Assembly: GCA_964558645.1 (NCBI GenBank)
Contig: CAZLEV010000010.1
Span: 68,623 to 132,622 of the forward strand
Length of the DNA stretch: 64,000 bases
DNA from: an uncultured archaeon
Lineage (GTDB): Archaea > Asgardarchaeota > Thorarchaeia > Thorarchaeales > Thorarchaeaceae
Direction: 5' to 3'
The position numbers and the translations under genes are program-made. Below the pieces are notes generated by a model, which saw nothing but the letters and a program-made list of their open reading frames with translations, ran no database searches and was not told the origin of the DNA. Positions 5,798-8,407 of the stretch are shown piece by piece (position 1 is the stretch's first letter; each line of letters starts with the position of its first letter).

Positions 5798-6208
5798 CTA
5801 CAATCTGATTGGATTCGGCCCGATCTTACGTATCTCCTCGGCGAACTTGTTGACCTCGGCTGCAAACTTGTCACCCTCGGCAGCGCTGACAAACACCATC
5901 TTCACCCGGTCCTCGTTCAGGCCCAGCTGTCCCACGAGCTTTCTCGCAAACCGCACCCGCCGTTCCGCCCCTAGGTTTCCTGTCTTGTAGGCACAGTCCC
6001 CGGGATGGCAGCCCACCACCAAGACGCCGTCCGCTCCCTCCTGCAGCGCCTTCAGGATGAAGTTGATGTCAAGGCGCGCGGTACATGGCATCCGGATGAT
6101 CCTCGAGGTCACATCGTATTGCAACTTCATCGTTCCCGCTAGGTCGGCTGCTGCGTACATACACTGCATACAGCCAAACGCGACGATTCGCATATCTTTC
6201 GGGGGCAT
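5798..6208 (-). CDS. mvhD: Methyl-viologen-reducing hydrogenase delta subunit (MvhD/FlpD, [2Fe-2S])
   Basis: FGCMQCMYAAAD, RMPCTAR, GADGVLVVGCHPGDCAY, VSAAEG. Confidence 0.92.
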   Translation of the reverse strand: MPPKDMRIVAFGCMQCMYAAADLAGTMKLQYDVTSRIIRMPCTARLDINFILKALQEGADGVLVVGCHPGDCAYKTGNLGAERRVRFARKLVGQLGLNEDRVKMVFVSAAEGDKFAAEVNKFAEEIRKIGPNPIRL

Positions 6209-6386: not shown

Positions 6387-6700
6387 ACTGATTTCGGATG
6401 CATGCACCGACCTGTGTCTAGTCGCCAGAGAGTGAGTGAACTCCCTCGATGACCTTCAACTCCCGTGTTCCACCCCTCTCATGACTGCCGTCACCGGCGA
6501 GAGTCAGGACCTCTCCCGACCCCTGTACACGAGCATTGTCCAGCGTGTGGCTGGAAGTGGCTTCACTCCGCTGCAACCTGATGCCATGGCTGTCAGCTGC
6601 CTTGCGGGCGTCCATGGCGGCAGTCGGCTGTTCCACGGTTCTTTCCACGGCGGGGTCGGCAGCGCTCACAGAGTCCACAAGGGAGCTCTGCTCATAGCAC
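6387..6700 (-). ncRNA. Putative omega/reRNA overlapping the tnpB 3' end; scaffold ending ACAGGTCGG at 6407, candidate guide 6406-6387
   Basis: Low-complexity C-terminal tail of TnpB; hairpins GCCATGG/CCATGGC, AGGGAGT/ACTCTCT and CGACT/GGTCG; the terminal 9-mer recurs upstream of both tnpB copies. The 5' boundary is a guess. Confidence 0.55.
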
Positions 6701-8193
6701 TCAGCCGCGGACGATCCCGTCGGGCCTGACAGACCCTGAGACCGTTCGGACTTCACGTCAGAGGGACGCACCCTCCTTCGAGCCTTCAAGCCTGCCTGCT
6801 CCCGTTTGCGAGGGAACAACCAGCGCTCTAGTCCGTTCTCATCTCTCAATGAAGGGATGAGCCTGATCAATCGGCGCGCGATGTTGATGGCGCCGTTCTT
6901 GTCCGCATTGCATCGATAGCCACAGGTGTGACAGATGAACAGGGACTGCTTGGGTCTCACACCTTTGTGGCCGCATCGATGGCAGATGATGGAGGTCCAC
7001 GACTCCGGGACAGCAACGAGATGCGAGTCCTTGCCGGACACTCTCCAGCCTGCCTGGGCCAGGGAGTGCCTCAGGGCAAGGGTCACCCGTGAGAAGGACC
7101 AGCGGGCCACCATCTTCCGGAAGGACTTGGGACGCCTGCTGTTTCTGTTTGCAGACCTCCGGATGTGGGTCAGTCTGCCTATGGCAACATAGAGGTTGTA
7201 CTTCTTGGAGAGCTCGAGGATGTGATCGGTGAGCTCTCGCACAAGCACCCGGTCATGGTCACGGCTGATGTTGACACGGCGACGGCTCAGTTCTCTGAGT
7301 CTTTGCATGACCTCATCATAGTCACGGCCAGCATTCCTTCTCAAATTCATCTCGTGCTGCAGGGAGTCCACCATCTCATCATAGCGCTCGATCTGCTTCA
7401 CCTTCTCGGGCTGGGTGAAGTAGCGGATATACCTCACCCGTTCCCGTGTCAAGACAGCAGAGCAGACAGCCTTATCGATACCAAGGTCTATCCCGAGGAC
7501 AGCCGGGGGCTTCCCGGATATATCCACAGGTGGGAGCCCCAGTCGTACCGAGAAGATGATCCACCATCTCTTCTGTGAGTCCTTGAGAATCCTGAGGGAT
7601 GTGACCTCTCCCTCATCCAGCCTGTTCAGATGATAGGAGGAGGGGTTCAACGGAATCATGAGCCGGTCATGGACCCAGCTGTTTGTCCGTGCAGAGTCCA
7701 AGGAGTCAAGGAGGTCGAGCCAGTATTTGGTTTCCTGCTCAGGAGTGTAGACCAGCTTGAACCTACGATTGAACACGTACCTGGGAAGCTTCCGTTCTCG
7801 ATACCCCCGGGACTTCATCGGCATCTCCCCCTCAAGGGCAAGATAGCTGTTCCACATGGCCACCGCAACCTGCCGGCACTCCTGTAGCTCGTTCAATGAG
7901 ATGTTCGGGAAGCGCTCCTTGAAGTCATGGGGAACCGTCAACCTTCGCTTCGAGGGATCTTTGAACCGCTCAGCCGTCAGGGTCAGCTTCTCTAGCCTCC
8001 CCCCATTGATCCGTTTCTTCTTCTTGCCAAACAGCAGGTCCTTCTCGTGGTGGGCGATGACTCCAAGAAACGCCCGTATTACCCGGGTGTCTCTCCCCGT
8101 CATCCGTGAGAGGCGCTCTCGCTGTCTATCAGTCATGGCGTCCCACTTCACCGGGACCTTCACACTGATGACAACCCGCTCGGAGTTCGGCAC
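6418..8193 (-). CDS. tnpB: TnpB-family RNA-guided nuclease with a rearranged (Fanzor-like) RuvC site
   Basis: RuvC-I VLGIDLG (D236); RuvC-II position holds Gly (VAIG339RL) with an alternative Glu in VPE397SWTS; Zn finger CHRC...CHTC; RuvC-III NAD431KNGAINIA. Confidence 0.9.
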   Translation of the reverse strand: MPNSERVVISVKVPVKWDAMTDRQRERLSRMTGRDTRVIRAFLGVIAHHEKDLLFGKKKKRINGGRLEKLTLTAERFKDPSKRRLTVPHDFKERFPNISLNELQECRQVAVAMWNSYLALEGEMPMKSRGYRERKLPRYVFNRRFKLVYTPEQETKYWLDLLDSLDSARTNSWVHDRLMIPLNPSSYHLNRLDEGEVTSLRILKDSQKRWWIIFSVRLGLPPVDISGKPPAVLGIDLGIDKAVCSAVLTRERVRYIRYFTQPEKVKQIERYDEMVDSLQHEMNLRRNAGRDYDEVMQRLRELSRRRVNISRDHDRVLVRELTDHILELSKKYNLYVAIGRLTHIRRSANRNSRRPKSFRKMVARWSFSRVTLALRHSLAQAGWRVSGKDSHLVAVPESWTSIICHRCGHKGVRPKQSLFICHTCGYRCNADKNGAINIARRLIRLIPSLRDENGLERWLFPRKREQAGLKARRRVRPSDVKSERSQGLSGPTGSSAAECYEQSSLVDSVSAADPAVERTVEQPTAAMDARKAADSHGIRLQRSEATSSHTLDNARVQGSGEVLTLAGDGSHERGGTRELKVIEGVHSLSGD

Positions 8194-8407
8194 ATCATTT
8201 CACCCAATCTAATAAAGTCCCGACCTGTTTTGGGTCAGGGGGAGTTCACTCACTCCTTTCTTGCGGAGCGTGGATGATAATCTCCACTTTTTCTCCCGAA
8301 CAATATCTAATAAAGTCATGAAGCCTATTTATGAAATCGCTTCTACTAGGTGATTATGGCTCTTAGAAGCGATTTCATTTGAGAAATACTTGCTCCTTTA
8401 TAAGGCA
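8194..8407 (-). promoter_or_regulatory. Conserved tnpB upstream module, copy 1 (hairpin, TATA/target site, leader RNA)
   Basis: Alignable with 63492-63704; perfect 15-bp inverted repeat 8331-8345/8364-8378; 13-bp direct repeat 8207-8219/8305-8317. Confidence 0.8.

What the first reader, a model, noticed from the sequence alone, without database searches (positions are those of the whole stretch)
6418..8193. Archaeal TnpB with a Fanzor-type rearranged RuvC active site
Seen: the canonical RuvC-II Glu is replaced by Gly (YVAIG339RL), and a Glu appears 58 aa later just before the Zn finger (VPE397SWTSIIC). D236 and D431 are intact. Established: this G/P substitution plus an alternative Glu in an ExxTS motif marks Fanzors and their closest prokaryotic TnpB relatives. 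Inference: an active rearranged nuclease rather than a nuclease-dead TldR. In a probable Asgard host this bears on Fanzor origins, although convergence is possible.
Basis: partly seen in the sequence, partly recalled or inferred. Interest (0 to 1): 0.75.

Follow-up and report, generated by a model that had tools for sequence, protein, structure and literature searches.

The report
Ordinary rearranged-site TnpB in Thorarchaeota
The gene is a real RNA-guided nuclease (TnpB) of an Asgard archaeon whose catalytic glutamate has moved. This arrangement is already well described in many bacterial and archaeal TnpBs, and the gene lacks the second hallmark of the Fanzor lineage, so it says little about where eukaryotic Fanzors came from.

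Summary
ORF 6418-8193 (-) encodes a 591-aa TnpB with D236, G339 at the canonical RuvC-II position, E397 six residues before the first CxxC, and D431. All four are invariant in a family of several hundred proteins, nearly all from Thorarchaeota.

The Gly plus alternative-Glu arrangement (Ealt, RIIr, TnpB2) is a published, widespread prokaryotic class with an experimentally active archaeal member. The published Fanzor fingerprint also needs D-P-G in RuvC-I. This protein and all 190 relatives checked have D-L-G or another non-Pro residue. By fold and by sequence profile it is as close or closer to Cas12f than to Fanzor2.

It belongs to the Asgard "aCas1-associated TnpB" group of Altae-Tran et al. 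2023, and it carries that group's GTTCACTCA motif. This copy has lost the giant partner gene, which survives beside a second copy at 58286-63451.

The last ~145 codons are not constrained as protein. They overlap a roughly 430-nt structured RNA with 50 covarying pairs, which I read as the omega-RNA.

The leader holds a locus-specific 12-13-nt self-match next to TTMAT in 49 of 53 loci. That feature is the most interesting open point here.

Verdict: a new member of a known kind, of modest interest.

The parts
6418..8193 (-). tnpB open frame, 591 codons. The folded protein is about aa 1-470 (window about 6784-8193).
   Evidence: The AF2 model has pLDDT above 90 for aa 1-470 and below 50 for aa 482-591.
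7486..7488 (-). RuvC-I Asp, D236, in GIDLG. The triplet is D-L-G, not D-P-G.
7177..7179 (-). G339 at the canonical RuvC-II Glu position, at the end of strand 333-340.
7003..7005 (-). Alternative RuvC-II Glu, E397. It lies right after strand 392-396 and six residues before C404.
6922..6984 (-). C4 zinc finger, CxxC at 404-407 and CxxC at 421-424.
6901..6903 (-). RuvC-III Asp, D431, in NADKN. NADxN is the 'derived TnpB' motif.
6407..6832 (-). Structured RNA, taken to be the omega-RNA scaffold. It overlaps the last ~145 codons and ends at ...ACAGGTCGG.
   Evidence: There is no codon periodicity in the tail. RNAalifold finds 67 pairs, 50 with compensatory changes, in 47 loci. Conservation stops after ACAGGTC(G/A)G.
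6421..6454 (-). 3'-terminal hairpin. Its loop carries GTTCACTCA and its stem arms are locus-specific. It includes the right arm (6430-6445) of the 16-nt inverted repeat.
6387..6406 (-). Putative guide, the 20 nt immediately 3' of the scaffold end.
   Evidence: Inferred by analogy with TnpB omega-RNAs. No second TAM-linked match was found in the genome.
8220..8255 (-). Leader module. It comprises the left arm of the 16-nt inverted repeat (8240-8255, GAGTGAGTGAAC...) and a hairpin ending in ACAGGTCGG.
8207..8219 (-). Proximal 13-mer GACTTTATTAGAT. It is TATA-like and directly follows ACAGGTCGG.
   Evidence: (repeat D11).
8305..8322 (-). Distal copy of the same 13-mer (8305-8317), preceded by TTCAT (8318-8322), a TAM-like motif.
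8331..8378 (-). Distal leader hairpin with a 15-bp stem. It is shared with copy 2 and is the remnant of the intergenic region that faces the partner gene in other loci.
   Evidence: (repeat I3).
58286..63451 (-). Giant partner gene of copy 2, 1721 aa. It has an N-terminal Cas1-like helical domain, a PD-(D/E)xK motif block and a RecA/KaiC-like domain.
63706..64000 (+). Start of the second tnpB copy. It is cut by the contig end and continues on contig C28.

Best explanation
This is a catalytically competent RNA-guided DNA endonuclease of the TnpB family. It belongs to the known subclass in which the RuvC-II glutamate has moved from the end of beta-4 (now G339) to just after beta-5 (E397, six residues before the zinc finger), while RuvC-I keeps the ordinary D-hydrophobic-G form.

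It is one of several old paralogs of a Thorarchaeota-specific family that normally sits head-to-head with a giant Cas1-like protein. That family is the 'aCas1-TnpB' group of Altae-Tran 2023. The copy in question is a solo copy that has lost the partner gene.

Its guide RNA scaffold is a roughly 430-nt structured RNA encoded in the 3' part of the open frame. The scaffold ends at ACAGGTCGG (window 6407). The following ~20 nt would be the guide. Cleavage would use D236, E397 and D431.

Shown here: the motifs, their conservation, the fold, the RNA covariation, the family context and the failure of the Fanzor fingerprint. Inferred: nuclease activity, the position of the guide, the TAM (possibly TTMAT) and the biological role.
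For: Motifs and numbering were verified and are invariant in the family. The canonical and alternative Glu are mutually exclusive in 68 of 69 representatives. The AF2 model is confident (pLDDT above 90 over aa 1-470), with G339 and E397 at the ends of adjacent strands. The fold matches Cas12f, TnpB and Fanzor2 over aa 2-470 at Z 14-17.5. The published precedent is that the alternative Glu is catalytic (ApmFanzor E467A is dead) and that the archaeal Ealt TnpB TvTnpB cleaves DNA (PMC10530073). The protein matches the D{P}G-Ealt regular expression. The tail is not under protein constraint: substitution rates at codon positions 1/2/3 are .26/.28/.34, against .24/.15/.53 in the core. The tail folds into a covarying RNA. 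GTTCACTCA and the Asgard host fit the Cas1H-Asgard description. The partner gene lies beside 48 of 80 relatives and beside copy 2. Its N-terminus matches the Cas1 catalytic domain at Z 13.1, 12.4 and 12.2 (8flj, 4n06, 4w8k) and casposase at Z 11.4 (6opm).
Against: No biochemical data exist for this family. No transcript data fix the RNA ends or the guide. Two of the genome's other copies contain an in-frame TGA, so some copies may be decaying. Within genomes the copies are at most 81-85% identical, and the closest orthologs share synteny with flpD. That pattern fits a resident, possibly domesticated gene better than an actively hopping element.
Confidence: 0.75

Rival explanations
1. This is a domesticated, immobile RNA-guided module rather than a transposon helper. 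TnpB would mainly bind, not cut. It would use a short leader-encoded guide to recognise its own upstream promoter (autoregulation), or other partial matches, like Cas9 with tracr-L or TldR repressors, while keeping its catalytic residues.
For: In 49 of 53 loci the 13-mer that follows the leader's ACAGGTC(G/A)G recurs 85-125 nt upstream with at most 1 mismatch. The figure for 13-mers taken from other loci is 1.2%. There are 47 distinct 13-mers, and exact matches run 9-15 nt with a mode of 12-13. The distal copy is preceded by TTAAT (29 loci) or TTCAT (13 loci) and contains a TATA-like box. The closest orthologs keep the same neighbour, flpD. Another ortholog group keeps pyrB. No near-identical paralogs were seen, and no viral copies were found.
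Against: Strict conservation of all three catalytic residues argues for cleavage. The leader RNA would be only ~60 nt long and lacks the large scaffold. The duplicated 13-mer could instead be two promoters kept alike, or a target-site-duplication-like scar. MAG assemblies collapse identical repeats, and many loci lie at contig ends, so recent transposition may be hidden.
Confidence: 0.2
2. This is an Asgard lineage specifically ancestral or sister to eukaryotic Fanzors.
For: It shares the alternative Glu in ExxTS and the Gly at the canonical position, and the host is an Asgard archaeon. In Yoon 2023 all Ealt proteins form one side of the tree, so a distant cousinship holds for the whole Ealt class.
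Against: RuvC-I is D-L-G, not D-P-G. None of 120 family members and none of 71 representatives fit the DPG-Ealt expression. Published pro-Fanzors are cyanobacterial IS607 elements with a serine recombinase. Here the recurrent partner is a Cas1-like giant protein and no serine recombinase recurs. A profile search scores AsCas12f at 7e-14, mimivirus Fanzor2 at 2e-7, and finds no Fanzor1. Z is 17.5 for Cas12f against 15.5 for Fanzor2. Altae-Tran 2023 reports multiple independent RuvC-II rearrangements.
Confidence: 0.03
3. This is a nuclease-inactive relic. The loss of the canonical Glu would be a real inactivation, and E397 would be structural only.
For: G339 removes the canonical carboxylate. 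Two paralogs carry in-frame stops.
Against: E397 is invariant and anticorrelates with the canonical Glu across 69 representatives. Homologous alternative Glu residues are experimentally essential. The zinc finger and RuvC-III are complete, unlike in TldR-type truncations.
Confidence: 0.04

Closest known systems
TnpB with a rearranged RuvC-II site (Ealt / 'TnpB2' / RIIr branches), for example Thermoplasma volcanium TvTnpB
   Same: Both have Gly at the canonical Glu position, the alternative Glu six residues before the first CxxC, D-hydrophobic-G in RuvC-I, NADxN in RuvC-III, and a C4 zinc finger. Both occur in archaea.
   Different: This protein is much larger (about 470 folded residues plus an open tail). 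Its RNA scaffold is about 430 nt. No Y1 or serine TnpA is present, and the partner is a Cas1-like giant protein. Its activity is untested.
aCas1-associated Asgard TnpBs (Cas1H-Asgard-1/-2; Altae-Tran et al. 2023, PNAS)
   Same: Both have an Asgard host and a variable stretch followed by GTTCACTCA at the 3' end. A Cas1-homolog gene lies next to tnpB (copy 2 and 48 of 80 relatives). Repeats occur at both ends.
   Different: This copy lacks the partner gene. Here the 'hypervariable region' proves to be one arm of a hairpin stem, and conservation runs on to ACAGGTC(G/A)G, so the guide probably starts later than that paper guessed. I could not read the paper's supplement to confirm which of its two groups this is.
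Fanzor2 and cyanobacterial pro-Fanzors (IS607 type)
   Same: Both have the alternative Glu position and the overall TnpB fold (Z 15.5 to 9b0l).
   Different: The D-P-G fingerprint is absent. There is no serine recombinase. The host is neither cyanobacterial, viral nor eukaryotic. The similarity is no closer than to Cas12f.
Cas12f (type V-F effectors such as AsCas12f)
   Same: These are the best structural and profile matches (Z 17.0-17.5; E 7e-14). Size, WED/REC/RuvC/zinc-finger layout and a long guide RNA are similar.
   Different: No CRISPR array or adaptation genes lie at the locus. Cas12f has the canonical Glu.

Membership tests
TnpB / OMEGA RNA-guided nuclease | Split RuvC domain with an Asp-Glu-Asp triad and a zinc finger between RuvC-II and RuvC-III | tested here: met
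   D236, E397 (alternative position), D431 and two CxxC pairs are present. PF07282 and NF040570 hit. The fold matches at Z 14-17.5.
TnpB / OMEGA RNA-guided nuclease | Structured guide RNA encoded at or overlapping the 3' end of the gene | tested here: met
   RNAalifold finds 67 pairs, 50 with compensatory changes, over 47 loci. The tail shows no codon periodicity. Expression of the RNA was not tested.
TnpB / OMEGA RNA-guided nuclease | RNA-guided, TAM-dependent DNA cleavage | not testable with these tools
   This needs biochemistry.
Ealt / RIIr rearranged-site TnpB | Non-acidic residue at the canonical RuvC-II position plus a Glu six residues before the first CxxC | tested here: met
   The D{P}G-Ealt regular expression of Yoon 2023 matches residues 236-431. 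The two Glu positions anticorrelate in relatives.
Ealt / RIIr rearranged-site TnpB | Alternative Glu placed next to the two Asp in three dimensions | tested here: inconclusive
   The model is confident and places E397 at the end of the strand next to the one ending in G339.
Fanzor / pro-Fanzor lineage | D-P-G motif in RuvC-I | tested here: not met
   The triplet is D236-L237-G238. No DPG was found in 120 family members or 71 representatives.
Fanzor / pro-Fanzor lineage | Alternative Glu six residues before the zinc finger | tested here: met
Fanzor / pro-Fanzor lineage | IS607-type serine recombinase partner (pro-Fanzor, Fanzor2), or a eukaryotic or giant-virus host | tested here: not met
   The recurrent neighbours in 80 loci are the giant Cas1-like gene, flpD, an HTH gene and pyrB. 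No recombinase cluster recurs. The hosts are Thorarchaeota MAGs. No relative was found in viral contigs.
Fanzor / pro-Fanzor lineage | Placement inside the DPG clade in a phylogeny | not tested
   No Fanzor or pro-Fanzor sequences could be obtained.
aCas1-associated Asgard TnpB (Cas1H-Asgard) | Variable stretch followed by conserved GTTCACTCA downstream of the nuclease core | tested here: met
   The motif lies at window 6433-6441 and recurs in 64 relatives.
aCas1-associated Asgard TnpB (Cas1H-Asgard) | Adjacent Cas1-homolog gene | tested here: inconclusive
   The partner is absent beside this copy. It is present beside copy 2 and beside 48 of 80 relatives. Its N-terminus matches the Cas1 catalytic domain by fold at Z 13.1, 12.4, 12.2 and 11.4. 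It matches only weakly by profile (hhalign E 0.04) and not at all by Pfam PF01867.
TldR (nuclease-dead TnpB-like repressor) | Loss of catalytic residues and/or truncation of RuvC-III and the zinc finger | tested here: not met
   All catalytic residues and the zinc finger are invariant.

The most novel reading that the evidence does not exclude
The Thorarchaeota Cas1-like/TnpB pairs may be vertically inherited two-gene RNA-guided systems rather than active transposons. In them, a catalytically intact TnpB would use a leader-encoded 12-13-nt guide, placed right after a copy of the scaffold's terminal ACAGGTC(G/A)G module, to bind a TTMAT-flanked copy of the same 13-mer that contains its own upstream TATA box. 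That would be natural partial-match self-targeting for autoregulation. The published 'hypervariable guide' would instead be a stem arm.
Probability: 0.3. Interest if true: 0.7.

Novelty: new member of a known kind. Interest (0 to 1): 0.3.

Why it matters
As originally framed, the finding would have offered an Asgard link to Fanzor origins. The evidence does not support that. The relocated glutamate is a common prokaryotic variant, and the Fanzor-specific D-P-G signature is missing.

What remains useful falls into three points:
- It is a clean, well-conserved, compact (about 470 aa) Ealt nuclease family with a defined, strongly covarying guide-RNA scaffold.
- It gives a sharper anatomy of the little-studied Asgard Cas1-homolog/TnpB module. 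The partner is a roughly 1,750-aa protein with a Cas1-like domain, a PD-(D/E)xK motif block and a RecA-like domain.
- Two of its predictions can be tested at the bench: that the scaffold ends at ACAGGTC(G/A)G, and that the leader self-match beside TTMAT has a function.

Tried and rejected
1. A transposon bounded by long terminal inverted repeats. The perfect 16-nt repeat (6430-6445 / 8240-8255) is the maximum among 53 loci. Usually only the ~8-nt motif is shared, with a mean of 8.7 nt within loci against 7.9 nt between loci. Homology to copy 2 and to relatives runs beyond both arms.

2. A canonical Cas1 next to tnpB. PF01867 finds a single ordinary Cas1 in the genome, on another contig, and 0-2 per relative. 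tblastn with that Cas1 hits none of the 80 loci.

3. The giant partner gave nothing with Pfam, NCBIfam, PDB sequence profiles or the ESM atlas. Only the fold search was informative.

4. Rfam has no family for the 3' RNA or the leader.

5. The IMG/VR viral contigs hold no relative.

6. A search for a second genomic target of the putative 3' guide found none with a TTMAT flank.

7. Active-site distances could not be measured, because model coordinates are not exposed to scripts.

8. Makarova 2020 (PMC7307682) and the supplement of Altae-Tran 2023 are not held. I therefore could not check the published domain description of aCas1, or which Cas1H-Asgard group this is.

9. No Fanzor or pro-Fanzor sequences could be obtained by reference, so no joint tree was built.
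Full report
**Observation.** The minus-strand ORF at 6418-8193 encodes 591 residues from a GTG start that is preceded by a GGTGA box.
- D236 in GIDLG
- G339 in YVAIGRL
- E397 in VPESWTS
- CxxC at 404-407 and at 421-424
- D431 in NADKNG

Pfam finds the Cas12f1-like TNB domain (PF07282, 2.5e-12). NCBIfam's best model is guided_TnpB (4.9e-26), below its curated cut-off, so this is a divergent TnpB.

**Conservation.** A search of 5.8 billion proteins returned 355 relatives, and almost all named ones come from Thorarchaeota or Promethearchaeia MAGs; the best reaches 72% identity. In a 23-sequence alignment at 46-72% identity, D236, G339, E397, D431 and all four Cys are invariant. A full HMMER scan of 1.84 billion cluster representatives gave 1303 hits. 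Of the 69 long representatives that could be scored:
- 60 have Gly (one Ser) at the canonical position together with the alternative Glu
- 8 more distant ones have only the canonical Glu
- 1 has both
- none has neither

The two positions therefore compensate for each other. That is the expected signature of a relocated catalytic residue rather than of inactivation.

**Structure.** AlphaFold2 with a 68-sequence alignment gave mean pLDDT 81.5. Residues 1-470 are above 90 and residues 482-591 are below 50. G339 closes strand 333-340, and E397 directly follows strand 392-396. This is the topology the literature describes for the relocated Glu (beta-5 instead of beta-4; PMC10691335). Foldseek and VIA-align place the model closest to Cas12f (8dzj, 9nzs, 8j3r; Z 17.0-17.5; 366-386 residues aligned). 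Mimivirus Fanzor2 (9b0l) scores Z 15.5 and ISDra2 TnpB scores Z 14.3-15.2. Fanzor1 is not among the 50 rows shown. A family profile against PDB sequences ranks AsCas12f at 7e-14, Fanzor2 at 2e-7 and ISDra2 TnpB at 0.05.

**Comparison with published classes.**
- Altae-Tran et al. 2023 report RuvC-II rearrangements in two major clades and eight large branches of prokaryotic TnpB. The largest has Glu replaced by Gly and compensated by another Glu, and several rearranged branches are almost exclusively archaeal.
- The Sci Adv 2023 paper shows that the alternative Glu is essential in a Fanzor. It also shows that the archaeal Ealt enzyme TvTnpB cuts DNA in a TAM-dependent way without collateral activity.
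- Yoon et al. 2023 define the Fanzor and pro-Fanzor fingerprint as D-P-G in RuvC-I plus Ealt. They split Ealt proteins into a D-hydrophobic-G clade and a DPG clade, and they place pro-Fanzors in cyanobacterial IS607 elements.

This protein fits their D{P}G-Ealt regular expression exactly from D236 to D431 and fails the DPG one. The same holds for 119 of 120 family members, and none of 71 representatives fits DPG. By the published test this is an ordinary D-hydrophobic-G Ealt TnpB. I could not build a tree with Fanzor sequences, because none could be brought in by reference.

**What the locus is.** Altae-Tran et al. also describe two Asgard-specific groups of TnpB linked to Cas1 homologs ('aCas1'). 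These have flanking repeats and a variable stretch followed by a conserved GTTCACTCA. That motif sits at 6433-6441 inside the end of this ORF, where it encodes the residues GVHS. It is part of a perfect 16-nt inverted repeat with 8240-8255. Eighty related loci from Thorarchaeota genomes share the architecture.

In 48 of those 80 loci a gene of more than 1,200 codons lies head-to-head about 250 nt upstream. Full-length homologs are 1,720-1,950 aa, are known only from Thorarchaeota, and have no Pfam, NCBIfam, PDB-sequence or ESM-atlas match. The window holds such a pair at its far end: the giant gene at 58286-63451 (-) and a second tnpB starting at 63706. That second tnpB continues on contig C28, because the two contig ends overlap by exactly 55 nt.

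An AlphaFold2 model of the giant protein's first 1,150 residues has pLDDT 82. Its residues 1 to about 240 match the catalytic helical domain of Cas1 and casposase: 8flj at Z 13.1, 4n06 at 12.4, 4w8k at 12.2 and 6opm at 11.4. Residues 590-860 match RecA/KaiC/DnaB-type domains at Z 10-11. A profile-profile comparison with Cas1 is weak (E 0.04), but it aligns the Cas1 catalytic helix, with Tyr in place of the catalytic His. A conserved E...D...ELK...QxxxY block suggests a RecB/Cas4-like nuclease between the two domains. That suggestion rests on reading the motifs only. The giant gene is therefore very probably the published 'aCas1'.

The copy under study lacks the giant gene. It keeps about 250 nt of the shared leader, up to the hairpin at 8331-8378. 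Like its closest orthologs (63-73% identity), it lies just upstream of flpD. This looks like vertical inheritance at a fixed site with later loss of the partner gene.

**The RNA.** Among 12 orthologs, the core (aa 1-445) has substitution rates of .24/.15/.53 at codon positions 1/2/3. The tail (aa 446-591) has about .26/.28/.34. The tail is therefore conserved as nucleotides, not as protein, which fits its disorder in the model.

An alignment of 47 loci from just after RuvC-III to the right end (about 460 nt, strikingly constant in length) gives a consensus structure of 67 pairs. Fifty of those pairs show compensatory double changes. I take this to be the omega-RNA scaffold, and it is unusually large for a TnpB.

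GTTCACTCA lies in the loop of a terminal hairpin whose arms differ between loci but stay complementary in 40 of 53 loci. The 'hypervariable region' that the 2023 paper proposed as a possible guide is thus more likely a stem arm. Conservation continues to ACAGGTC(G/A)G (window 6407), so the guide probably starts at 6406. No second TTMAT-flanked match to that putative guide exists in the genome.

**Mobility.** The long inverted repeat is not general. Its within-locus length averages 8.7 nt against 7.9 nt between loci, and 16 nt is the maximum. Paralogs within a genome are at most 81-85% identical and mostly 45-60%. No relative was found in viral contigs. Many loci sit at contig ends, so collapsed identical copies cannot be excluded. 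Current transposition is neither shown nor excluded.

**A feature that deserves follow-up.** The 13 nt that follow the leader's ACAGGTC(G/A)G recur 85-125 nt upstream with at most 1 mismatch in 49 of 53 loci. For 13-mers borrowed from other loci the figure is 1.2%. There are 47 distinct 13-mers, and exact matches run 9-15 nt. The upstream copy is preceded by TTAAT (29 loci) or TTCAT (13 loci) and includes a TATA-like box.

The geometry is that of a TAM plus target facing a scaffold end plus guide, with a match too short for cleavage in known Cas12 and TnpB enzymes. Autoregulation by partial self-targeting is an attractive reading. Two alternatives remain open: a duplicated promoter, or a target-duplication scar left by the Cas1-like partner.

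**Verdict.** The inference of an active nuclease is reasonable and rests on strong precedent. The 'Fanzor-type' label and the link to Fanzor origins are not supported. The gene is a new member of a known kind: D-hydrophobic-G Ealt TnpB, in the Asgard Cas1-homolog-associated group.

Noticed in passing
window 8207-8219 and 8305-8322; related loci L008-L087: A locus-specific 12-13-nt TATA-like word is present twice in the tnpB leader. One copy follows ACAGGTC(G/A)G and the other follows TTMAT about 95 nt upstream. It covaries in 49 of 53 loci, against 1.2% for cross-locus controls. It could be an autoregulatory guide-target pair, a duplicated promoter, or a duplication scar.
   Followed up: partly
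window 58286-63451 (-): This is a giant 1721-aa orphan protein that sits head-to-head with tnpB. By fold it has an N-terminal Cas1/casposase-like helical domain (Z 11-13), with Tyr where Cas1 has its catalytic His, and a RecA/KaiC-like domain at about 590-860. Reading the conserved motifs suggests a PD-(D/E)xK (RecB/Cas4-like) block at about 370-480. The C-terminal ~570 aa were not examined.
   Followed up: partly
window 6421-6454 (-) and the same place in 53 relatives: The 'hypervariable region' upstream of GTTCACTCA, described in the literature as a possible guide, pairs with the sequence downstream of the motif in 40 of 53 loci. It is a stem arm, and the motif is a hairpin loop. The complementary motif sits in a hairpin loop of the leader (8240-8255), so a loop-loop contact between the two RNAs is conceivable.
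   Followed up: partly
window 63946-64000 and genome contig C28:1-55: The contig carrying the window ends inside the second tnpB copy and overlaps contig C28 by exactly 55 nt. The assembly broke at the conserved NISxNELQEC stretch, and the two contigs are adjacent.
   Followed up: yes
genome contigs C26:35588-37336 and C28:3-1487: Two of the genome's other copies of this tnpB family each contain one in-frame TGA. These may be decaying copies, sequencing errors or recoding.
   Followed up: no
window 5798-6208 (-): A flpD/mvhD-like gene (PF02662) lies directly downstream of tnpB. It is found in the same position in 14 related loci, which indicates conserved synteny.
   Followed up: partly
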